A stretch of DNA of 15,982 bases. It comes from a virus (taxonomy: Duplodnaviria; Heunggongvirae; Uroviricota; Caudoviricetes). The translations under genes were made by a program, and so were the position numbers. Positions 2,826 to 15,982 of this stretch are shown in pieces; positions within the stretch are counted from its first letter, which is position 1, and the number at the start of each line of letters is the position of its first letter. Below the pieces are notes generated by a model, which did no database searches, had not been told where the DNA came from, and saw only the letters and a program-made list of their open reading frames with translations. The stretch lies in the IMG/VR virus record IMGVR_UViG_2737471818_000008, one strand, 5' to 3'.

Positions 2826-2953
2826 CTGGTTGCGTATACAGTAGTAGACTTTGAGCGACGAAAGAAAAGGCTGTGTCTAGGGTCGCTCCCGAAAATCCGT
2901 ACACCTCGACGGACTGGTACAGCCACTACAGTAGAGGACGCTGAGGTGTGCGT

Positions 2954-3978: not shown

Positions 3979-4176
3979 ATGTCAAATACGCTTATTCGTT
4001 TAACAGAAGTTCAGCGTAGAACTGGATATAGCAAGGCATGGATTTATCGCCTTATGGGGCAAGGTAAATTTCCTGCATCAGTTAAAATTGGCTCGCGAGC
4101 TATTGCTTTCGTTGAGAGTGAAATTGACGAGTGGATTAATCAGCGTATTGCGGAATCACGCGGAACAGCTACCTGA
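3979..4176 (+). CDS. alpA: AlpA-family phage transcriptional regulator / excisionase-like DNA-binding protein
   Basis: 65-aa ORF with GAGG 7 nt upstream of the ATG. LIRLTEVQRRTGYSKAWIYRLMGQGKFPASVKIGSRAIAFVESEIDEWI is the characteristic AlpA/Vis-type winged-HTH sequence found after int in P4-like and PICI elements. Confidence 0.85.
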   Translation: MSNTLIRLTEVQRRTGYSKAWIYRLMGQGKFPASVKIGSRAIAFVESEIDEWINQRIAESRGTAT

Positions 4177-4253: not shown

Positions 4254-5054
4254 ATGAAATTTCCAAAAACGCCCGTACAGGGGCGGGGCTTCGTTCGGCC
4301 TGAAAACCAGAATCTGCAAAATTTCGGCGAAATTATCCCGATTATTTCCGGCGTTATTGGCGGGAGTGAAACCACTATTGTTAGCGCCAGAGCGTTACAT
4401 AAGGCGTTAGGTGTAGGGCGCGTTTTCCGTTCGTGGATCAAGGGGCGCATTGAAGAATACGGGTTCACGGAAGGCGTGGATTATGAGGTTGTTGAATATT
4501 TGAGCCGACCCGATCCGGTGAGCGCAAAATCTCGCCAGCAAACCGCTCTTGAGTACATCATCACAGTGAACATGGCGAAAGAACTGGCGATGGTAGAACG
4601 CACCGAACAGGGGCGCGCCGTTCGTCAGTACTTCATCAAATGCGAGGAAGAGCTACACAAGGTTGCGCCTGTACGTTCCGCAGCGTTACGCCGGGAACTG
4701 AAAGCCCGTATCACAGTTGCCAGCTACTTTAAGCCAATGTGTGCCGCGCTGGAGGCGTACCGGGCTGAACTGGGTAAAAACACTCTACAGCACCACTACA
4801 CCACGGAAGCCAATATGCTGGCGCGTATCGTGCTGGGTGGCATGACTGCAAAACAGTGGGCGCAGGCGAACGGCATCACAGGCGAACCACGCGACCACAT
4901 GAGCACGTTGCAGCTTGAGCACCTTTCTTACCTTGAGCAGAGCAATATCACGCTGATTGAGTTAGGCCAGGACTACCACCAGCGGAAAGCTGAATTAATT
5001 CGCCTTTCGCAGCGTTGGTTAGCCCGTCGCATGGAGGAAAACAGCCATGTGTAA
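4254..5054 (+). CDS. Phage antirepressor-like protein (AntA/ORF6N-type N-terminal domain)
   Basis: 266-aa ORF with CAGGAG upstream. The N-terminal stretch SARALHKALGVGRVFRSWIKGRIEEYGFTEGVDYEVV matches the pattern I associate with AntA/ORF6N antirepressor N-domains. The domain assignment is from memory and needs an HMM search. Confidence 0.6.
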   Translation: MKFPKTPVQGRGFVRPENQNLQNFGEIIPIISGVIGGSETTIVSARALHKALGVGRVFRSWIKGRIEEYGFTEGVDYEVVEYLSRPDPVSAKSRQQTALEYIITVNMAKELAMVERTEQGRAVRQYFIKCEEELHKVAPVRSAALRRELKARITVASYFKPMCAALEAYRAELGKNTLQHHYTTEANMLARIVLGGMTAKQWAQANGITGEPRDHMSTLQLEHLSYLEQSNITLIELGQDYHQRKAELIRLSQRWLARRMEENSHV

Positions 5055-6348
5055 CGCTCTGACCGTTACAAAAAGAGAAAGCGCCCCGTTGCCGGAGCGC
5101 CTTTGTGAACGAATAGCCTACTGCGCCATATTGCTTACTGTCTACGGGGCAGATTATAGCGTTGTGGTCGCACAGAGTGAAGGCGCTGATCACCGTTTCT
5201 ACAGCACGCCGGAAATGCAGAATATTTTGCTGCAAAATGCCGTTGGTCACGCCGTCCGGAAAGCAAAAAATTTTGCTGGTGGTGCGACCGATACGATTTT
5301 GTCAGGTCGCCAGGTGCTGATTAATCTGATGTCTGATTTCGTTCTGGATAAAACAAAGGCGACCGCAGAGGGCCGCCAGTGGGAAAGCTACATACTTGAA
5401 CGCATCGCCAACAATGCCAGATTTGCGGCTGGTGGACAATGTGTCAGCTTTGCACCAATGACTCTATGTTTAACTGAGGGTCATTATGGTGAATATGCTG
5501 GCTTGCTGGTGGGCTATTCCTGCTCTTTAACATTGCCATGCCGCGATGTTTTCCAGGTATGCGATCCCATTTTTGTGCGCCTGTACTCTTTAAGGAATTG
5601 CTCAAGGGCAAAAGCACATGGCGCGAATCTTTCTGATTCATGCTCTATCTTTCTGCGCCGTCTTTTCCGTGCCGGTGATGGTGTATTGGTTGATTCTTTG
5701 TTGGTCATGGCGCTGCCCTGTAAAACGATGCACCGTAGTTCCTCACACCACGGCGCTGGTGATGGTTACTCCTGTTCTTTGGCCTTGCGGCGCTGGCGGT
5801 ATTCAACTTCTCGCTTTAATGCTGCTGTTACAAACTGCCCTGTACTTTCACCAGGCATTTTTACCGCCTCAACATTGTTCATAACTTCATGCGGAACCCT
5901 TGCCGCAACTGTTTGTGATTTTGCGTTTACTGCTTTTGTCGCCATGTTGTGTACCCCTTACAAAAAACAAATGCAGTATGCAGGAAAAAAAATAAGTGTT
6001 CAACACTTGACGTGTTTAACACCTGGACTTAAATTGGTGTTCAACACCTTGTTGATGCAAGGTGCAGAAACGACAACGCCCCGCAGTGGTGGCACACATG
6101 CAGGACGTCTAACCACCAACGATAGCAAGAGTATCGAGGTAGCTATGAGAAATCATACCACACACCCGCAAGGGCGGGACTCGCACAACCTGAATAAATA
6201 CATCTGGCGTTTTATCGCCCTGAGCACGGCACAACCGCGCGTAATTCACATCGAGGCCACCAGCGAACAGGAAGCACGCCAGCAATCTCCTGATGGCTGC
6301 GTGATGGTATTCGCCGCCCGTATTCGCCAGGAGGTGGAACATGTGTAA
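5047..6348 (+). CDS. Hypothetical protein; only the 5' ~140 codons look coding. The 433-codon ORF is probably a chimeric read-through across an antisense gene, an intergenic operator region and a separate in-frame small gene
   Basis: Start ATG overlaps the stop of the upstream gene (ATGTGTAA). Codon usage over about 5047-5470 looks like normal coding sequence. Beyond that the translation becomes Cys/Ser/Thr-rich and crosses an operator/promoter cluster at 5996-6047. No in-frame stop exists before 6348. Confidence 0.25.
   Translation: MCNALTVTKRESAPLPERLCERIAYCAILLTVYGADYSVVVAQSEGADHRFYSTPEMQNILLQNAVGHAVRKAKNFAGGATDTILSGRQVLINLMSDFVLDKTKATAEGRQWESYILERIANNARFAAGGQCVSFAPMTLCLTEGHYGEYAGLLVGYSCSLTLPCRDVFQVCDPIFVRLYSLRNCSRAKAHGANLSDSCSIFLRRLFRAGDGVLVDSLLVMALPCKTMHRSSSHHGAGDGYSCSLALRRWRYSTSRFNAAVTNCPVLSPGIFTASTLFITSCGTLAATVCDFAFTAFVAMLCTPYKKQMQYAGKKISVQHLTCLTPGLKLVFNTLLMQGAETTTPRSGGTHAGRLTTNDSKSIEVAMRNHTTHPQGRDSHNLNKYIWRFIALSTAQPRVIHIEATSEQEARQQSPDGCVMVFAARIRQEVEHV
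5766..5945 (-). CDS. Small ribbon-helix-helix-like DNA-binding protein (59 aa), candidate repressor of the divergent promoter; not in the supplied ORF track because it is under 60 aa
   Basis: Hand-translated from the minus strand: MATKAVNAKSQTVAARVPHEVMNNVEAVKMPGESTGQFVTAALKREVEYRQRRKAKEQE. AAGGGG lies 8 nt upstream of the ATG. The pattern is strand (TVAARV), helix, loop, helix. Three palindromic operators lie immediately upstream. Confidence 0.4.
   Translation of the reverse strand: MATKAVNAKSQTVAARVPHEVMNNVEAVKMPGESTGQFVTAALKREVEYRQRRKAKEQE
5996..6047. promoter_or_regulatory. Divergent promoter/operator region: three GTGTT(C/T)AACAC palindromes overlapping a sigma70-like promoter
   Basis: Seen directly: GTGTTCAACAC (5996-6006), GTGTTTAACAC (6012-6022), GTGTTCAACAC (6037-6047). 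TTGACG (6007-6012), a 17-bp spacer, then TAAATT (6030-6035) forms a plus-strand promoter with operators flanking the -35 and overlapping the spacer and the region just downstream of the -10. Confidence 0.55.
6145..6348 (+). CDS. Small protein (67 aa), possibly Icd-like host cell-division inhibitor family; first gene of the rightward operon
   Basis: In-frame ATG at 6145 with GAGG 6 nt upstream, downstream of the operator/promoter cluster. MRNHTTHPQGRDSHNLNKYIWRFIALSTAQPRVIHIEATSEQEARQQSPDGCVMVFAARIRQEVEHV resembles my recollection of Icd-like small proteins in P4-like prophages. Unverified. Confidence 0.4.
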   Translation: MRNHTTHPQGRDSHNLNKYIWRFIALSTAQPRVIHIEATSEQEARQQSPDGCVMVFAARIRQEVEHV

Positions 6349-6565
6349 TGCAACATGGCCTGATGCAGCGGTAGACGCTATCAAAACGCTGATGGATTCA
6401 CTTATTGAGATTTCTGCTATCGCTGGTGTGGCGCATAAACACGCAGCCAGAGAATCAGAATGCATCTCCCATTATTTAGCATTTGTGCAGCTAAAAGCCG
6501 ATCAGGCACTGGATAAGGCCGGAAAAATTATCATGGCTGATGTGCAGGAGGTGCACCATGCATAA
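6341..6565 (+). CDS. Hypothetical small protein (74 aa)
   Basis: ORF with AGGAGG 9 nt upstream of the ATG. Start overlaps the preceding stop (ATGTGTAA); first of a chain of overlapping small genes. Confidence 0.55.
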   Translation: MCNATWPDAAVDAIKTLMDSLIEISAIAGVAHKHAARESECISHYLAFVQLKADQALDKAGKIIMADVQEVHHA

Positions 6566-6923
6566 CCTGTCAATTTCTGACCTTAACAGCATTCAGTTTG
6601 ACGAGAAATTTACCGGGCAGTTGCTGGTCAATGTGGAGAACGGGCGCATAGTGCGTAATTACCACCTGCCGGATGGTGCAATTGCCGGAAGCGTTGAAGC
6701 ATTGCTGGAACTGGCGGAACGTGCGCGACTGATTAAGCCGTCAACGAGCCATCACGATGATGATCTGCATTTTACCGGGCGTATGGTGAGTCACTACGAA
6801 AACGGCGTTGAAGTATCCCGCGAACGGCTGCGTGATGATTGCTGTTTCGGCACACTGCCGGAATTTATCGAGTTGCTGACCAGTTGCGGTTATCAGGTCA
6901 TTCAGGGGGGTAAACATGCGTGA
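6558..6923 (+). CDS. Hypothetical protein (121 aa)
   Basis: ATG at 6558 preceded by AGGAGG at about 8 nt (the ORF track's upstream ATG at 6540 has no RBS). Overlaps its neighbours in operon fashion. Confidence 0.6.
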   Translation: MHNLSISDLNSIQFDEKFTGQLLVNVENGRIVRNYHLPDGAIAGSVEALLELAERARLIKPSTSHHDDDLHFTGRMVSHYENGVEVSRERLRDDCCFGTLPEFIELLTSCGYQVIQGGKHA

Positions 6924-7149
6924 TGATCGTTTTAATTCCCTGAAACGGGAATTTGATGGCGCACCGGAAGATGCAGCGGGCGCATTGTTGAGCGTTGCTG
7001 ACATGATGAAAGCTGCATATTTTCTTATCAATACCAGTGGCTACAAGTCAGAGGGTGAAATGATTCTTAGTATTGCGTCGGACTATGCGGAATATGTGGC
7101 AGAGACGCGTTACAGAAGAAAATTCACGGAGGATGTAAGCCATGCATAA
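6916..7149 (+). CDS. Hypothetical small protein (77 aa)
   Basis: ORF whose start overlaps the upstream stop (ATGCGTGA); G-rich RBS upstream. Confidence 0.55.
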   Translation: MRDDRFNSLKREFDGAPEDAAGALLSVADMMKAAYFLINTSGYKSEGEMILSIASDYAEYVAETRYRRKFTEDVSHA

Positions 7150-7342
7150 TCATGAAGCGCATGTACCCGTAGTGCTTAATGTGCCAGATGATTTCACCGG
7201 ACGCGTATTGGTTTACCTGGATAAAGGGAAAGTGAAATCACAATGCCGACTGAAAAGTAATGAGATTGTTGGTTCTCCTGAATTTTTTTCTGAACTTTGT
7301 ATTCGTGCGGAAATAAAACCGGAACTGCTGACAGGAAAATAA
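7142..7342 (+). CDS. Hypothetical small protein (66 aa)
   Basis: ORF with GGAGG upstream; start overlaps the upstream stop (ATGCATAA). Confidence 0.55.
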   Translation: MHNHEAHVPVVLNVPDDFTGRVLVYLDKGKVKSQCRLKSNEIVGSPEFFSELCIRAEIKPELLTGK

Positions 7343-7346
7343 AACC

Positions 7347-7637
7347 ATGAAAAAGAAAAATTCTGGCTTTACTGCCAGCGGCCTCTCTCGGCCTGAAATC
7401 CGCCCCGGTGATATTTTCCGGGACACCAGACGCGGGGGACGGGTGGTTATTCGTCACGTTACGCCAGGCAATATCACCTACCGCCGTGAGGCTTACGAAT
7501 ATGACTGCGTAATGCCGCGCCGTCAGTTTGATCGTGATTTTATTCTGGTGGAAAACAAACAACAGGCAGTGGCGAGACGTGCAGCCACGAATATTAAAAA
7601 AATCCGGGCAATGTTGGTTGCGGGAGGTAAGAAGTGA
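7347..7637 (+). CDS. Hypothetical basic protein (96 aa)
   Basis: ORF immediately after the previous stop; its stop overlaps the primase GTG start (GTGA). Confidence 0.6.
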   Translation: MKKKNSGFTASGLSRPEIRPGDIFRDTRRGGRVVIRHVTPGNITYRREAYEYDCVMPRRQFDRDFILVENKQQAVARRAATNIKKIRAMLVAGGKK

Positions 7638-9439
7638 AAAACGCACCGAGTCTAAAATATCAGCCGAAGGATAAATTCACTGAGGTAATCATTTTTGCCG
7701 GGACGGATGCTTACGCCCATGCTCAACACTGGATTGAAAGTGAAGGACGAAAACACGGCGATAACGTGCCTCCTGTTTACCTGGGGCCAAAGCAACTGGC
7801 AGACCTGGCGAATATCCGCATTATTGACGAGAAACGCCGTTTTGCGCGTGTCTATATCGCGGGGGAGATAGAGCCAATCCAGATCAATACTATCGCTGAA
7901 AAGCTGGCGCTGGCTGGCGTACAGGAGGCGAAATTATACAAAGGTATCACCGACCAGGAACCGGAGAACTGGCGCGACTACCTGCAACGGATCCGCGAAC
8001 AGGCTGAGCACGGGGAAGTTTCAGTGATGAAATTAGCTACAAAAAATAGTGGTCTACCCAAGCCTGCATTAAATCAGATGGGAGCCAGCCAGAGAGGGGA
8101 GGTGTTACTTGAACATTATGGAGGAGCACTGGCGATAAATGATGATTCTGATGTAGTTCACCATTACAACGGAATTGTTTGGGAGCCTGTATCTGATAAA
8201 GAACTCCAGCGGTCTATGGCGAAGATTTTTATTGATGCCGAAATTAGTTATTCGCAAAACGCCATTAAATTTGCCGTAGAGACAATGAAATTGAGTCTAC
8301 CTGTTATGGGGGGAGCGGACAGAAATCTTATTGGGTTCAGTAACGGTGTTTTTGATATCAGGACAGGAAATTTTCGGGAACACAACAAAAATGACTGGTT
8401 GTTAAATGCCAGTGAATTACCGTTCAGCCCGCCAGAAGAGGGGGAAACGCTGGCAACACATGCGCCGAATTTCTGGAAGTGGTTGCGTCGTTCGGTGGCG
8501 GATAATGCTCGTAAAGCGGATCGCGTACTGGCGGCATTATTCATGGTACTGGCGAACCGGTACGACTGGCAGTTATTCCTTGAGGTAACGGGGCCGGGCG
8601 GAAGCGGTAAAAGTGTGATGGCGGAGATTTGTACCATGCTGGCGGGTAAGGCCAATACAGTATCGGCGAGCATGAAGGCGCTGGAAGACGCGAGGGAACG
8701 AGCGTTAGTGGTAGGATATTCTCTGATTATCATGCCTGACATGACCCGCTACGCAGGTGATGGTGCTGGGATTAAGGCCATTACAGGCGGTGACAAGGTG
8801 GCTATCGATCCGAAACACAAAGCGCCCTATTCCACGCGCGTTCCTGCGGTAGTGCTGGCAGTAAACAATAATGCCATGTCATTCAGCGACCGTAGTGGGG
8901 GGATCTCGCGTCGACGAGTGATATTTAATTTCTCTGAGGTTGTACCAGAGAACGAACGCGATCCGATGCTGGCGAAAAAGATAGAAGGGGAACTGGCCGT
9001 AGTGATTCGCCATTTGCTTACACGATTTGCCGACCAGGACGAAGCGAAAAGACTACTTTATGAGCAGCAAAAATCAGAAGAAGCACTGTTAATAAAGCGT
9101 GAAGGTGATTCGCTGGTGGACTTCTGCGGTTATCTGATGTCGTTGGTTAAATGTGAGGGGATGATAGTAGGTAATGCAGAAATAGTGCCATTTAGCCCGA
9201 GGCGATATCTGTATCATGCTTATTTGGCTTATATGTCTGCGCATGGTCTGGGAAAACCGGTATCACTGACACGCTTTGGTACAGATATGCCAGGGGCAAT
9301 GGCTGAGTACGGAAAGGAGTACAAGCGGGCTAAATGCACTAAAGGTCCAGATAAAGGGCGAACGATCACAAATGTTCTGTTAGATAAAGATGCTGATGGA
9401 TGGTTACCAGCAGCGGCAGGCATTAACGACAGAACATGA
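7634..9439 (+). CDS. Phage/plasmid primase, P4 family (primase-helicase with C-terminal NTPase domain)
   Basis: 601-aa ORF with GTG start and GGGAGG upstream. Walker A GPGGSGKS and a downstream Walker-B-like acidic motif; overall architecture typical of P4 alpha-like / PICI pri-rep proteins. An iteron array follows immediately. Confidence 0.88.
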   Translation: MKNAPSLKYQPKDKFTEVIIFAGTDAYAHAQHWIESEGRKHGDNVPPVYLGPKQLADLANIRIIDEKRRFARVYIAGEIEPIQINTIAEKLALAGVQEAKLYKGITDQEPENWRDYLQRIREQAEHGEVSVMKLATKNSGLPKPALNQMGASQRGEVLLEHYGGALAINDDSDVVHHYNGIVWEPVSDKELQRSMAKIFIDAEISYSQNAIKFAVETMKLSLPVMGGADRNLIGFSNGVFDIRTGNFREHNKNDWLLNASELPFSPPEEGETLATHAPNFWKWLRRSVADNARKADRVLAALFMVLANRYDWQLFLEVTGPGGSGKSVMAEICTMLAGKANTVSASMKALEDARERALVVGYSLIIMPDMTRYAGDGAGIKAITGGDKVAIDPKHKAPYSTRVPAVVLAVNNNAMSFSDRSGGISRRRVIFNFSEVVPENERDPMLAKKIEGELAVVIRHLLTRFADQDEAKRLLYEQQKSEEALLIKREGDSLVDFCGYLMSLVKCEGMIVGNAEIVPFSPRRYLYHAYLAYMSAHGLGKPVSLTRFGTDMPGAMAEYGKEYKRAKCTKGPDKGRTITNVLLDKDADGWLPAAAGINDRT

Positions 9440-9473
9440 TACGAAATTTATAAGTTGAAACTTAAAAGTAGAC

Positions 9474-9806
9474 GGTTGGTAGACAGATACACTTAACCCT
9501 CTACCAACCATCTACTAATTAATGTTTTGAATTATATAGGTATTTTTAATGTGGTAGAGAGGTGGACAGTTTATTTTATATTTCTAAACCACGGGGGTAT
9601 CTAAAAATAGATAGTTATGGGTTCATTTTTAAAATTTTTCTTTTAACTATCTACACTGTCTACCATTTAGTAAAAATCATTAATTATCAATGTATTAATA
9701 CGGTAGAGAGTTGGTAGACAGTTTGCAGATTGTTTTTTGTTATGTGTGAACAACATTAAATAAATCAATCAATTATATCGATAGACAGTTGGTAGACAGT
9801 TGTAAC
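9474..9806. repeat. Iteron array, probable replication origin: about 8-9 copies of GGTAGA(C/G)AG(TT) in both orientations in an AT-rich segment
   Basis: Seen directly: GGTTGGTAGACAG (9474-9486) with inverted partner CTACCAACCA (9501-9510); GTGGTAGAGAGGTGGACAGTT (9551-9571); ACTGTCTACCA (9655-9665, inverted); CGGTAGAGAGTTGGTAGACAGTT (9701-9723); tandem TAGACAGTTGGTAGACAGTT (9782-9801). Directly downstream of the primase gene. Confidence 0.65.
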
Positions 9807-14233: not shown

Positions 14234-15982
14234 GTGAAAATATCTTTTTTTGGCGTAAATAACTTTAGGACAATATCAGGTGGCATTGGTAATAATAGAA
14301 TAATATTTAAAGATAGCAATACGCTTTTCATTTACGGGGCAAACAATGCTGGAAAATCAACTTATTTAAAAGCATATATGTTTTTTTACAGTAATGAAAA
14401 ACCTATCATTGATGATTTCTTTAAACGAGACGACAATAATTCTATTGAGTTTGAATTAGAAGTTCAACTTGATGACTTGGATAAAGAAAGAATAGAAGCC
14501 AAAGCACCGAAGCAAAAGGAAAGTTATAAGAAGTATTTAAATAATGATTTTATTAGAATTAAGAAAGTATGGAGTAAAAATGGAACAAGAATAGAGGATA
14601 AAAATTATACTTATGATTATAGTAAAGGAGATAGCGGCGAGTATGATGAAGTTGGATATGCAACGATTGGTTTGCATCAGGTCTTCCAATCTTGTTTGCC
14701 AAAACCTGTATTTATAAAGGCTATGCCAACAGAGGAAGAAGCTAAGAAGATTCTTAATGAAATCCTAAAGATGATGGCTGAAAATACACTTAAAACATCT
14801 GATCTTGATGAATTAAAAGCAGCTCAGAATAAAATAAAAGAATTACAAGACAAAATGTATGATCCAGAATTGATTGAGACCTATCAGAATTCAGTTAACG
14901 GATACTTTAACAAGATATTCGGTGATACTGCTATATGCTTCAAAGATCAAAAAGATAGGGTTGTTTGGACGGAGAATAAGCTTGGCAGAGATTTTGAAAT
15001 TGAGTTTATGAAAAAAAATAGCCAAGGGGAGTTTGATGGCAATATCCCTTCAAGTTATAGCAGTGTAGGTCATGGAACTATTAGGACTGCAATATTTACA
15101 TTATTATTGATGAGAGATGTAGCAGAGCGTTTTGAAAGAAGGCTTGGACGTAAGGATTACATGGTTCTGTTTGAGGAGCCTGAGCTATTTCTCTATCCTA
15201 GAATGGTGAAGGAACTTCGTGAATTGATTTATCAGGTGAGCACTGAAGACCTTCCATATCAAGTACTTTGTGCCTCACATTCATCTTCCATGATAGATCT
15301 TTCAAAGCCTAAATCTTCGATAATACGATTAGTTAATAATTCTACTGGAACTAAATCATATCAAATTAATGATCAATTTTTGAAGGATGCAAAAGGCATT
15401 GCTACAAATGCTGAACTTAAACAAGAAATGTATGAAGTTTTGAGGTTTAACCCTTATATTTGTGAATCATTCTACGCTGATGAGGTGCTTCTGATTGAGG
15501 GGCCAACAGAAGAAATAATATGTAGAGCTTTTTTACAAGAAACCCCATCAGATAAATCTATATTCGTATTGAACTGTGGTACGGTTAATAACATTCCTTT
15601 TTATCAAAAAATCTTCTCAAGGTTTAATATAAAATATCATGTGATCTGTGATACAGATAAAGCAGAAATAGTTACCGTAGATCAATCTGGCAATGCAGAT
15701 TTTGATTCTGGAATACAGAAAACAATTTCAGAACAGTATAGGAATGATTGTACTGCAATGAATGGTAATATAGGACTACTTCGAACTCATAACATTACAT
15801 TTGAACCTGCTCATCAGGATGTTAGTATTCCTGACTTTTTGAGATTTGTTGATTGCGGTGATAGAAGCAAACCATTTAATGCAAACTTGTACTGGAAGGA
15901 TATTTTAAGGCCAAATATATCACATCAAGATATAAATAAAGTGCCTATAATTAAGTATTTGAATGAAATAATAGCACATTAA
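14234..15982 (+). CDS. OLD-family ATP-dependent nuclease (N-terminal ABC-type ATPase plus C-terminal TOPRIM domain); class 1 OLD or Gabija GajA-like; candidate anti-phage defence protein
   Basis: 582-aa ORF with GTG start and AAGGAAA upstream, in strongly AT-rich DNA. Motifs read directly: Walker A GANNAGKST (near 14336-14362), Walker B MVLFEEPELF (near 15161-15190), H-loop-like ASHS, TOPRIM glutamate LLIEGPTEE (near 15491-15517) and DxD ICDTDK (near 15644-15661). Size matches P2 Old and GajA. Confidence 0.85.
   Translation: MKISFFGVNNFRTISGGIGNNRIIFKDSNTLFIYGANNAGKSTYLKAYMFFYSNEKPIIDDFFKRDDNNSIEFELEVQLDDLDKERIEAKAPKQKESYKKYLNNDFIRIKKVWSKNGTRIEDKNYTYDYSKGDSGEYDEVGYATIGLHQVFQSCLPKPVFIKAMPTEEEAKKILNEILKMMAENTLKTSDLDELKAAQNKIKELQDKMYDPELIETYQNSVNGYFNKIFGDTAICFKDQKDRVVWTENKLGRDFEIEFMKKNSQGEFDGNIPSSYSSVGHGTIRTAIFTLLLMRDVAERFERRLGRKDYMVLFEEPELFLYPRMVKELRELIYQVSTEDLPYQVLCASHSSSMIDLSKPKSSIIRLVNNSTGTKSYQINDQFLKDAKGIATNAELKQEMYEVLRFNPYICESFYADEVLLIEGPTEEIICRAFLQETPSDKSIFVLNCGTVNNIPFYQKIFSRFNIKYHVICDTDKAEIVTVDQSGNADFDSGIQKTISEQYRNDCTAMNGNIGLLRTHNITFEPAHQDVSIPDFLRFVDCGDRSKPFNANLYWKDILRPNISHQDINKVPIIKYLNEIIAH

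What the first reader, a model, noticed from the sequence alone, without database searches (positions are those of the whole stretch)
6145..7637. Chain of five to six small overlapping ORFs leading into the primase
The genes are linked by overlapping start and stop codons (ATGTGTAA, ATGCGTGA, ATGCATAA, GTGA), indicating tight translational coupling in one operon driven by the operator-controlled promoter at 6007-6035. The first may be Icd-like (host division inhibitor); the others are unassigned and could include helper-sensing or anti-helper functions.
Basis: partly seen in the sequence, partly recalled or inferred. Interest (0 to 1): 0.4.

Follow-up and report, generated by a model that had tools for sequence, protein, structure and literature searches.

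The report
Early operon of a phage satellite
The six small overlapping genes are real and form the front half of the early, replication operon of a common E. coli phage satellite (a PICI related to EcCICFT073 and, more distantly, to P4); this layout is already known for such elements, and what four of the six genes do remains unknown.

Summary
Six co-oriented small ORFs (67, 74, 121, 77, 66 and 96 aa) tile 6145-7637 and run into a 601-aa primase. Four junctions are 8-nt overlaps (ATGNNTRA), one is GTGA, and one is a 4-nt gap. Each start has a Shine-Dalgarno sequence inside the upstream gene.

All six ORFs are under purifying selection (dN/dS 0.04-0.39 for pairs with enough substitutions). NCBI's PGAP pipeline annotates all six in a 100%-identical E. 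coli chromosome.

The window is a Gram-negative PICI at tRNA-Thr. The same interval occurs in the experimentally studied EcCICFT073 and in 30% of complete E. coli genomes.

- **ORF1** belongs to the Icd-like family, which also contains P4 Kil. As in P4 eta/kil, it is nested in a 433-codon open frame that starts on the stop codon of the upstream antA/B gene.
- **ORF6** is DUF4222, a basic Tudor/SH3-like protein.
- **ORF2-5** are acidic, satellite-specific orphans. They are exchanged as cassettes at the conserved junctions. ORF3 is a tandem copy of the ORF5 domain. ORF4 is fused to ORF3 or to an ORF2-like gene in other strains, through length changes in a poly-G tract.

The function of ORF2-5 was not resolved. 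This is an ordinary member of a known kind, with a few new details.

The parts
5047..6348 (+). Eta-like long open frame of 433 codons. Its last 67 codons are the Icd/Kil-like ORF1. Its ATG overlaps the antA/B stop (ATGTGTAA, 5047-5054). It runs antisense through ylcI and through the promoter and operators.
   Evidence: The Icd frame is open for 125-407 codons upstream in 21 of 26 related loci, against 0-32 codons in the other two frames of those loci. P4 eta/kil has the same arrangement, with 217 open codons starting at the ORF88 stop (PMC10111431 section 20). There is no amino-acid-level constraint upstream (pN/pS about 0.9).
5766..5945 (-). Divergent YlcI/YnfO-family gene (59 aa). By eye it looks ribbon-helix-helix-like. 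It is the candidate repressor of the operon.
   Evidence: NF041551 at 2.1e-16. PGAP annotation. Its alleles co-vary with the operator repeats.
5996..6047 (.). Three operator-like palindromes GTGTT(C/T)AACAC at 5996-6006, 6012-6022 and 6037-6047.
   Evidence: Other islands carry three copies of a different GTG-N5/6-CAC motif at the same place.
6007..6035 (+). Sigma-70-like promoter, TTGACG-17-TAAATT.
   Evidence: 9 of 12 consensus positions matched; not above chance on its own. The -35 element is conserved in the alignment of 10 alleles.
6042..6144 (+). Leader. It has a hairpin at 6076-6108 with compensatory changes, and a stem (6115-6117 with 6138-6140, and 6120-6124 with 6132-6136) that occludes the ORF1 Shine-Dalgarno GAGGT at 6136-6140.
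   Evidence: 16 predicted pairs, 6 of them with changes on both sides. There is no Rfam family here.
6145..6348 (+). ORF1, 67 aa, Icd-like, which is the P4 Kil family. Basic (pI 8.1).
   Evidence: NF033153 at 3.8e-20. P4 Kil hits the same model at 7.7e-21. 94% identical to the EcCICFT073 homologue. dN/dS 0.20-0.39.
6341..6565 (+). ORF2, 74 aa, acidic orphan (phrog_5146). Relatives occur fused to ORF4-type proteins.
   Evidence: dN/dS 0.33-0.35. 35% identical to EcCICFT073 o3.
6558..6923 (+). ORF3, 121 aa. It is a tandem duplication of the roughly 55-aa 'FTG' domain that makes up ORF5 (phrog_340).
   Evidence: E = 1e-7 and 2e-4 for the two halves against ORF5. (two stretches). One-domain and hybrid-domain recombinants exist. 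dN/dS 0.08-0.26.
6905..6910 (+). Poly-G tract (G6). It doubles as the ORF4 Shine-Dalgarno. Its length decides whether ORF3 and ORF4 are separate or fused.
   Evidence: G6 and G9 give separate genes; G8 gives a 197-aa fusion. The analogous ORF2-like to ORF4 junction has G7 (fused) or G8 (separate). Fusion proteins make up about 21% of member sequences (322 of 1512, summed; sequences).
6916..7149 (+). ORF4, 77 aa, acidic, predicted helical hairpin (phrog_24341). A narrow family.
   Evidence: Only 22 representatives among 1.84 billion proteins. Modelled helices have pLDDT about 72. 56% identical to EcCICFT073 o4.
7142..7342 (+). ORF5, 66 aa, a single 'FTG' domain (phrog_340).
   Evidence: dN/dS 0.04-0.39.
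7347..7637 (+). ORF6, 96 aa, DUF4222. Very basic (pI 11.1). Modelled as a Tudor/SH3/KOW-like barrel with a C-terminal helix. Its stop overlaps the replicase start (GTGA).
7634..9439 (+). Replicase (D5_N, DUF5906, Pox_D5). Residues 146-592 are 49% identical to the helicase and ori-binding part of P4 alpha.
9467..9801 (.). Probable origin of replication: GGTAGACAG iterons in both orientations around an AT-rich core.
   Evidence: In Gram-negative PICIs the ori lies downstream of pri (PMC6092414).

Best explanation
Region 6145-7637 is the promoter-proximal half of the early (replication) operon of a Gram-negative PICI-type phage satellite integrated at tRNA-Thr. It corresponds to the interval between alpA and pri in EcCICFT073. 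In its first and last genes it is homologous to the left operon of satellite P4.

Shown by sequence: six real protein-coding genes are packed head to tail behind a promoter that carries three palindromic repeats. Next to the promoter lies a divergent YlcI/YnfO gene.

Inferred mechanism:
1. In the quiescent island, YlcI/YnfO binds the three palindromes and shuts the promoter.
2. On derepression, or on arrival in a cell that lacks the repressor, one polycistronic mRNA is made that runs through the primase.
3. A second input is read-through from the alpA-antA/B operon. Ribosomes translating the 433-codon Eta-like frame keep that transcript protected, as described for P4 eta.
4. At each junction (Shine-Dalgarno, then ATGNNTRA or RTGA) the terminating ribosome restarts on the next gene, so all products are made in sequence.

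Inferred products:
- ORF1 is a Kil/Icd-type inhibitor of host growth or division.
- ORF6 (DUF4222) is a basic adaptor that probably works with the N-terminal domain of the replicase or with nucleic acid.
- ORF2-5 are exchangeable, acidic, satellite-specific proteins. My preferred reading, at about 40%, is that they bind helper-phage or host proteins, in the position that the helper-derepressing protein epsilon holds in P4. ORF4 would act in a complex with ORF3 or ORF2-type partners.
For: - **Gene reality and coupling signals.** ORF layout and overlaps. The chain is longer than chance gives. dN/dS is below 1 for all six. There are no + strand terminators inside the block.
- **Conserved junction type.** In 27 related loci, 62 of 129 junctions are 8-nt ATGNNTRA overlaps and 35 are 4-nt RTGA overlaps, with GGAGG 7-12 nt upstream. 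The loci are not independent of each other.
- **Identity of the element.** Integrase next to tRNA-Thr, int-alpA RNA, primase, ProQ/FinO and PerC. The order of genes is the same as in EcCICFT073, and ORF1, 2, 4, 6 and the primase are 94, 35, 56, 51 and 43% identical to its genes. Part of the interval is present in 1611 of 5426 complete E. coli genomes.
- **P4 link.** NF033153 hits both ORF1 and P4 Kil. P4 has the same 8-nt junctions, and its alpha protein is 49% identical to the primase. The nested long frame is shared (PMC10111431).
- **Operators.** Allele-specific triple repeats.
- **Cassette behaviour.** 0-5 middle ORFs per island, drawn from more than 10 families. The L038 and L040 junction is a hybrid of two window junctions, with the crossover in CAGGAGGTG.
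- **ORF3/ORF2-ORF4 partnership.** Natural fusions.
- **Charge pattern.** First gene basic, middle genes acidic, last gene basic.
- **Satellite specificity.** No tblastn hit for ORF3 or ORF6 in 50,697 phage genomes.
- **Experimental precedent.** In ECOR61, six linked genes including an Icd-like gene and a primase cause growth arrest when a phage accessory protein is expressed, and this requires the Icd-like gene (bioRxiv 10.1101/2023.04.06.535777).
Against: - No expression data were available. Transcription from 6007-6035, coupling, and repression by YlcI are all inferred.
- The promoter match is no better than chance by consensus alone.
- ORF2-5 have no hit in Pfam, PADLOC or the PDB. The AlphaFold2 model of ORF3-ORF4 is unusable (pLDDT 51.5). 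Their role is therefore a guess based on position, charge and variability.
- DUF4222 also occurs next to xis in a lambdoid prophage of CFT073, so it is not tied to replicases. Its fold matches are generic.
- Some islands have only one middle ORF, and one has a frameshifted ORF5, so the middle genes are dispensable.
- None of P4 epsilon, ORF151 or Cnr is detectably homologous to ORF2-6.
Confidence: 0.75

Rival explanations
1. All six small proteins are replication accessories, such as initiator regulators like P4 Cnr, helicase loaders or ori-binding factors. They would be made stoichiometrically with the replicase.
For: They are co-transcribed and coupled with the replicase. The gene directly upstream of the replicase tracks the replicase N-terminal domain type: DUF4222 with type 0 in 14 cases, and a 112-123-aa family with type 1 in 9 cases. 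ORF6 is very basic. In P4, Cnr occupies the position before alpha.
Against: The same ORF2-5 set is found in front of two different replicase C-terminal types, primase-type and RepA-type. The number of middle ORFs varies from 0 to 5, and they are acidic. There is no homology to Cnr/DUF5375. The cloned EcCICFT073 rep gene plus ori was enough to drive plasmid replication (PMC6092414).
Confidence: 0.2
2. ORF2-5 are counter-defence proteins. They would be expressed by zygotic induction when the satellite DNA enters a new, repressor-free cell, and would protect it from restriction or other immunity, in the way plasmid leading-region genes or phage early accessory genes do.
For: They are small, acidic and fast-shuffling. 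They are the first genes to be expressed and are flanked by conserved exchange points. They are narrow, satellite-restricted families.
Against: No similarity to any known anti-defence protein was found. PADLOC holds only defence proteins, not anti-defence proteins, so its silence tests little. dN/dS of 0.1-0.35 shows no sign of an arms race.
Confidence: 0.2
3. The block as a whole acts as a phage-triggered growth-arrest (abortive infection or exclusion) module. A phage protein derepresses it, and the Kil/Icd-like protein stops the cell.
For: The ECOR61 locus in bioRxiv 10.1101/2023.04.06.535777: six linked genes with an Icd-like gene and a primase, with arrest that depends on the Icd-like gene. 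Uncontrolled induction of EcCICFT073 reduced growth and viability (PMC6092414).
Against: I could not compare the ECOR61 sequence with this window. Arrest may be a side effect of satellite induction rather than a selected defence. It would not explain why 4-5 further variable genes are kept.
Confidence: 0.15
4. The overlaps are only genome compaction in a size-limited mobile element, and several of the middle ORFs are decaying passengers without function.
For: Presence and absence vary. There is a frameshifted ORF5 in L037, and there are deletion hybrids.
Against: There is purifying selection on every ORF. The Shine-Dalgarno plus ATGNNTRA junction is conserved across genera. Homologues at 35-56% identity are retained in EcCICFT073.
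Confidence: 0.07

Closest known systems
EcCICFT073, the prototype Gram-negative PICI of E. coli CFT073 (interval between alpA and pri)
   Same: The order of genes is identical: int, HTH/alpA, divergent YlcI/YnfO, Icd-like, small overlapping ORFs, DUF4222, primase, PerC. ORF1 is 94% identical, the ORF4-type gene 56%, DUF4222 51%, the ORF2-type gene 35% and the primase 43%. It also has a long open frame upstream of the Icd-like gene (367 codons).
   Different: The middle cassette set differs. EcCICFT073 has a 76-aa and a 77-aa family that are absent here, and it lacks the ORF3/ORF5 'FTG' domain. It has no AntA/B gene and a different attachment site (beside roxA). The small ORFs of EcCICFT073 are not characterised in the papers I read (PMC6092414).
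Left (early) operon of satellite phage P4: eta/kil - epsilon - orf151 - cnr - alpha
   Same: The first cistron is from the same NCBIfam family (NF033153). It is nested in a long frame that is coupled to the upstream gene. The junctions are the same 8-nt overlaps (GTGCGTAA, ATGTTTGA). The last gene is a homologous replicase (49% over about 450 aa).
   Different: There is no C4/CI antisense RNA, isrK or seqA here (compared). Instead there is a divergent protein regulator with operators. No epsilon (PF25738), ORF151 or Cnr (DUF5375) homologue was found. The replicase has a different N-terminal domain, without the P4 Zn-ribbon primase part.
ECOR61 six-gene locus with an Icd-like gene and a primase (Silas et al., bioRxiv 10.1101/2023.04.06.535777)
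   Same: [quoted passage not shown] The Icd-like gene is needed for growth arrest.
   Different: Sequence identity to this window was not tested. That locus was interpreted as a prophage exclusion system triggered by the T7-group accessory gene orf24.
Phage P1 immI operon (c4 - icd - ant)
   Same: The name-giving Icd domain family. A small growth-inhibiting first cistron is translationally coupled to what follows (established knowledge of P1).
   Different: tblastn of ORF1 against 50,697 phage genomes found only a capsid-forming PICI and not P1. There is no C4 RNA here. The antirepressor-type gene lies upstream of the Icd-like gene, not downstream.

Membership tests
Gram-negative PICI (EcCICFT073 type) | Integrase at one end next to the attachment site, co-oriented with the other core genes | tested here: met
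   tRNA-Thr(cgt) at 1369-1444. Tyrosine integrase at 1611-2825 on the + strand.
Gram-negative PICI (EcCICFT073 type) | AlpA-type regulator downstream of int | tested here: inconclusive
   PGAP calls a 65-aa HTH regulator at about 3979-4176. The int-alpA RNA motif RF02996 at 2870-2937 scores 45.5 bits against a gathering score of 35.8. NCBIfam gave no AlpA-specific hit.
Gram-negative PICI (EcCICFT073 type) | Primase/replicase followed by an iteron-type origin | tested here: met
   D5_N, DUF5906 and Pox_D5 domains. GGTAGACAG iterons at 9467-9801.
Gram-negative PICI (EcCICFT073 type) | Synteny and homology with the alpA-pri interval of a proven PICI | tested here: met
Gram-negative PICI (EcCICFT073 type) | About 10-20 kb, with no tail or lysis genes | tested here: inconclusive
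   No such genes are annotated from 1611 to the end of the window, but the right end of the island was not located.
Gram-negative PICI (EcCICFT073 type) | Induction and packaging by a helper phage | not testable with these tools
   Needs experiments.
P4 left operon | Kil/Eta-type first cistron nested in a long frame coupled to the upstream gene | tested here: met
   NF033153 hits both proteins. Long frame of 433 codons that starts on the antA/B stop. The P4 equivalent is shown.
P4 left operon | CI (C4-family) antisense RNA immunity with seqA/isrK-type targets | tested here: not met
   No C4, isrK or c4-a1b1 hit in the window at E up to 1. P4 and an Erwinia P4-like locus score 75-81 bits.
P4 left operon | Epsilon (Derepression, PF25738) and Cnr (DUF5375) | tested here: not met
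   No such Pfam hits for ORF2-6. The P4 proteins hit them strongly. No BLAST similarity.
P4 left operon | Alpha primase-helicase | tested here: inconclusive
   Residues 146-592 are 49% identical to alpha residues 327-769. The N-terminal Zn-ribbon primase part of alpha has no counterpart.
Icd-like proteins (NF033153; P1 Icd) | Match to the family model above its cut-off | tested here: met
   71.7 bits against a cut-off of 25.
Icd-like proteins (NF033153; P1 Icd) | Inhibition of host cell division | not testable with these tools
   Needs expression and microscopy.
DUF4222 (PF13973) | Match to the Pfam model above the gathering score | tested here: met
   68.4 bits against 27.
ECOR61 Icd-like/primase growth-arrest locus | Sequence homology to the published six genes | not tested

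The most novel reading that the evidence does not exclude
The middle of the operon would be a recombination-shuffled array of satellite-specific effector cassettes that act on helper phages or on host immunity. The conserved Shine-Dalgarno plus ATGNNTRA junctions would serve both as coupling signals and as crossover points. A slippery poly-G Shine-Dalgarno would toggle ORF4 between a free protein and a fusion with its partner. In addition, the 433-codon Eta-like frame would be kept open only so that ribosomes can carry upstream transcription across an antisense repressor gene and its operators into the operon. That would be selection for translation itself, not for the protein.
Probability: 0.3. 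Interest if true: 0.6.

Novelty: new member of a known kind. Interest (0 to 1): 0.3.

Why it matters
This interval is present in about 30% of complete E. coli genomes (1611 of 5426) and in the model satellite EcCICFT073. Even so, four to five of its genes have no known function. They are the first satellite genes to be expressed, so they are good candidates for the still unidentified functions by which these satellites sense, exploit or interfere with helper phages. The details found here give concrete handles for experiments in an existing model system:
- which ORFs are core and which are exchangeable;
- that ORF3 or ORF2-type proteins are natural fusion partners of ORF4;
- that the first gene corresponds to P4 kil/eta;
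- that the operators are specific to each regulator allele.

Nothing here changes the current picture of PICIs.

Tried and rejected
- **ORF2 and ORF4 as paralogues.** This would have made a duplicated two-gene module. There is no BLASTP similarity. Only ORF3 and ORF5 are related.
- **A C4/CI-type antisense RNA in the leader.** None was found in the window, although P4 and an Erwinia P4-like locus have it. Weak SymR-like hits antisense to the leader in two related loci (33-37 bits against a gathering score of 61) were treated as chance.
- **P4 ORF151 as a DUF4222 relative.** hhalign gave a probability of 9%, so this was rejected.
- **Function from structure.** The AlphaFold2 model of the natural ORF3-ORF4 fusion had pLDDT 51.5 and was not used for fold search. 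The DUF4222 model (pLDDT 77.8) gave only generic Tudor/KOW/SH3 matches.
- **Function from sequence.** Searches of Pfam, NCBIfam, PHROGs, PADLOC and PDB, with single sequences and with profiles, gave nothing for ORF2-5.
- **A real long 'N-terminally extended Icd' protein.** The region upstream shows no amino-acid-level constraint in any frame. Within ylcI, the sense frame and the long antisense frame give the same pN/pS, so the test cannot separate them.
- **An internal promoter at 7123-7150.** It is not above the chance expectation.
- **Literature searches for P4 kil/eta primary papers.** These failed. I relied on the summary in PMC10111431.
- **First look-up of EcCICFT073.** My first guess at its position returned the neighbouring lambdoid prophage.

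Full report
**1. The observation**

The + strand between 6145 and 7637 carries six ORFs of 67, 74, 121, 77, 66 and 96 aa. They tile the region and lead into a 601-aa GTG-initiated primase at 7634-9439.

The junctions are:
- ATGTGTAA at 6341-6348
- ATGCATAA at 6558-6565
- ATGCGTGA at 6916-6923
- ATGCATAA at 7142-7149
- a 4-nt gap at 7343-7346
- GTGA at 7634-7637

Each start is preceded by a Shine-Dalgarno-like sequence inside the upstream ORF. These are GAGGT, GGAGGT (twice), GGGGGGT, GGAGGA, a weaker AGGA, and GGGAGGT.

The window is 100% identical to the E. coli EC11 chromosome, where PGAP annotates exactly these genes. A chain of six linked ORFs never arose in 2000 Markov simulations of the region; the longest chain seen was four, in 2 of 2000.

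Nei-Gojobori dN/dS against alleles from other E. coli islands and from E. ruysiae:

| Gene | dN/dS |
|---|---|
| ORF1 | 0.20-0.39 |
| ORF2 | 0.33-0.35 |
| ORF3 | 0.08-0.26 |
| ORF4 | 0.17 (the one divergent pair) |
| ORF5 | 0.04-0.39 |
| ORF6 | 0.25-0.37 |
| primase | 0.06-0.13 |

**2. What the element is**

The window holds the following, in order:
- tRNA-Thr
- a tyrosine integrase
- an int-alpA RNA motif (RF02996)
- a small HTH regulator
- an AntA/B protein
- a divergent YlcI/YnfO gene
- the six ORFs and the primase
- ProQ/FinO and PerC homologues
- a DUF2213 protein
- an OLD-family nuclease

This is the 'Integration, Bro, Replication, Late' layout described for Gram-negative PICIs (PMC10111431; PMC6092414; PMC11773190).

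The prototype EcCICFT073 has the same order: int, HTH, divergent YlcI/YnfO, Icd-like, four small ORFs, DUF4222, primase, SSB, PerC, capsid. Its genes are 94% (ORF1), 35% (ORF2 type), 56% (ORF4 type), 51% (DUF4222) and 43% (primase) identical to those here.

Parts of the interval occur in 1611 of 5426 complete E. coli genomes. Only 150 genomes carry at least 80% of it.

**3. The architecture is conserved; the middle content is not**

I collected 34 primase-anchored loci from other Enterobacterales and 11 E. coli variants. A simple chain caller reproduced the PGAP genes. Wherever an Icd-like hit was found, it recovered this skeleton:
1. a divergent YlcI/YnfO gene in many loci, though tblastn found none in a number of them;
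2. an Icd-like gene;
3. 0-5 small ORFs drawn from more than ten unrelated families;
4. usually DUF4222, or a 112-123-aa family;
5. the replicase.

Of 129 junctions, 62 are 8-nt ATGNNTRA overlaps and 35 are 4-nt RTGA overlaps, with GGAGG 7-12 nt upstream. The loci are related, so these counts are not independent.

The junction fixes the protein ends. C-termini read E-V-x-H-A/V, which comes from the Shine-Dalgarno sequence plus cATGc. N-termini read MRD, MHN or MCN.

The junctions also look like the exchange points. In L038 and L040, ORF2 is missing, and the Icd-to-ORF3 junction is a hybrid of the window's Icd-to-ORF2 and ORF2-to-ORF3 junctions, with the crossover in the shared CAGGAGGTG.

The same ORF2-5 set sits in front of either a primase-type or a RepA-type replicase C-terminus.

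**4. The individual genes**

*ORF1.* It matches NF033153, 'Icd-like'. The C-terminal part of P4 ORF137, which is Kil, matches the same model equally well. It also gives BLAST hits to Icd-like proteins of related loci.

DUF4222 tracks one replicase N-terminal domain type in 14 of 16 cases, regardless of the C-terminal ATPase type. It also occurs next to xis in a lambdoid prophage. I therefore rate the 'replicase cofactor' reading as only plausible.

*ORF3 and ORF5.* ORF3 is a tandem of the roughly 55-aa domain that forms ORF5 (phrog_340). One-domain and hybrid-domain recombinants exist.

*ORF4.* Its family is tiny, with 22 representatives among 1.84 billion proteins.

*ORF2-5 as a group.* They are acidic. 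They have no Pfam, PADLOC or PDB relatives. ORF3 and ORF6 have no tblastn hit in 50,697 phage genomes. ORF1 hits only a 16.5-kb capsid-forming PICI.

**5. Fusions**

ORF4 is preceded by a poly-G run that also serves as its Shine-Dalgarno sequence.

| Junction | G-run | Result | Loci |
|---|---|---|---|
| ORF3 to ORF4 | G6 | separate genes | window and three others |
| ORF3 to ORF4 | G9 | separate genes | E. ruysiae |
| ORF3 to ORF4 | G8 | 197-aa fusion | strain F765 |
| ORF2-like to ORF4 | G8 | separate genes | strain EcN |
| ORF2-like to ORF4 | G7 | 154-aa fusion | two strains |

Fused ORF3-ORF4 proteins make up about 21% of the member sequences in the protein collection, 322 of 1512.

Both forms deliver ORF4. 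This argues that ORF4 works together with its upstream partner.

**6. Control region**

The promoter-like site at 6007-6035 is bracketed by three GTGTT(C/T)AACAC palindromes. Other islands carry three copies of a different GTG-N5/6-CAC motif at the same place, and the motif changes with the YlcI/YnfO allele. This is the pattern expected of a repressor and its operators.

The leader has a hairpin with compensatory changes. It also has a stem that covers the ORF1 Shine-Dalgarno sequence.

Unlike P4, there is no C4/CI RNA here.

**7. A nested long frame**

The ORF1 frame is open for 374 codons upstream of its ATG. The 433-codon frame begins at 5047 with ATGTGTAA on the antA/B stop.

In 21 of 26 related loci this frame is open for 125-407 codons, while the other two frames close within 0-32 codons. 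In EcCICFT073 it is open for 367 codons.

P4 has the same arrangement. There are 217 open codons that begin at the stop of the alpA homologue. The long product is Eta and the nested short product is Kil. Eta translation is reported to prevent termination of upstream transcripts (PMC10111431).

Here the frame runs antisense through ylcI and across the operators. The upstream part shows no amino-acid constraint. This fits selection for an open frame rather than for a protein, but the idea is untested.

**8. Interpretation**

It needs three additions:
- there are six ORFs;
- ORF6 has a family assignment;
- there is probably a second, upstream transcriptional input.

Its functional suggestion for the middle ORFs remains open.

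By position, the middle ORFs correspond to P4 epsilon and ORF151, but they are not homologous to them.

The only experimental data I found on a locus of this type are two. The ECOR61 six-gene locus with an Icd-like gene and a primase arrests growth when a phage accessory protein is expressed. Uncontrolled induction of EcCICFT073 harms the cell.

I commit to the operon model with confidence 0.75. With much lower confidence, about 0.4, I read ORF2-5 as exchangeable proteins that bind helper or host proteins.

**9. Novelty**

The element and its gene order are known, and the genes are already annotated. The following appear not to be described in the papers I could read, and they are modest in scope:
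- the domain relationship between ORF3 and ORF5;
- the poly-G-dependent fusions;
- the stereotyped junction as a crossover point;
- the allele-specific operators;
- the extension of the P4 eta/kil arrangement to YlcI-type PICIs.

Noticed in passing
window 5047-6348 (+), overlapping ylcI 5766-5945 (-): A 433-codon open frame ends as the Icd-like ORF1 and starts on the antA/B stop codon. It runs antisense through the whole ylcI gene and the operator region. It is conserved as an open frame in 21 of 26 related loci and in EcCICFT073, without amino-acid constraint upstream. It resembles P4 eta/kil.
   Followed up: partly
window 6076-6140: The leader RNA has a hairpin (6076-6108) with compensatory substitutions among E. 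coli alleles. It also has an invariant stem (6115-6117 with 6138-6140, and 6120-6124 with 6132-6136) that covers the ORF1 Shine-Dalgarno sequence. No Rfam family matches it.
   Followed up: partly
window 6905-6910; L002 4283, L037 3774, L043 3428, L044 3632 (ORF4 starts): The poly-G tract in front of ORF4 varies in length between strains (6, 8 or 9; and 7 or 8 at the ORF2-like junction). The variation switches between two coupled genes and one fusion gene.
   Followed up: yes
window 2870-2937: An int-alpA RNA motif (RF02996, 45.5 bits, above the gathering score) lies between the integrase and the next gene.
   Followed up: no
window 9467-9801: There are at least ten GGTAGACAG-type iterons in both orientations around an AT-rich core, just downstream of the primase. 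This is probably the satellite origin of replication.
   Followed up: partly
window 14234-15982: An OLD-family ATP-dependent nuclease (PADLOC Old, 5e-63) lies at the distal end of the window. It is probably a cargo anti-phage gene. It runs off the end of the window.
   Followed up: no
window 7634-8070; L036 4433-5845, L038 4225-5640: The first 140 or so residues of the replicase form a separate module. It is joined either to a P4-alpha-like D5_N/DUF5906 helicase or to a RepA-type helicase in otherwise near-identical islands. DUF4222 stays with this N-terminal module.
   Followed up: partly
L047 (P4) 8168-8584: The Pfam family Phage_ASH matches residues 21-84 of the old P4 'cI' ORF137. The same stretch of DNA is hit by the Rfam C4 model for the CI RNA (8420-8507), and the eta/kil frame is open for 217 codons there. 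'Ash family protein' annotations in satellites may therefore mark the translated eta/CI-RNA region rather than a separate protein family.
   Followed up: partly
L048 (CFT073) 5192-5431: A DUF4222 protein also occurs in a lambdoid prophage, next to the excisionase. The domain is therefore not restricted to satellites or to a position in front of a replicase.
   Followed up: no
L037 (E. coli F765) 1-243 and 408-1646: This related island sits inside a phage terminase large-subunit gene. It is a helper-embedded PICI of the kind described in PMC10111431. It carries the ORF3-ORF4 fusion and a frameshifted ORF5.
   Followed up: no
L011 3539-3610 (-), L039 2928-3000 (-): There are weak SymR-like Rfam hits (33-37 bits, below the gathering score of 61) antisense to the operon leader in two related loci. 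They are probably chance matches, and the two loci are homologous to each other.
   Followed up: no
window 5329-5764: PGAP marks a + strand pseudogene fragment here, called 'Icd-like, incomplete' in sister islands. It is in the same frame as the long open frame. No frame shows coding constraint in the comparisons I could make.
   Followed up: partly
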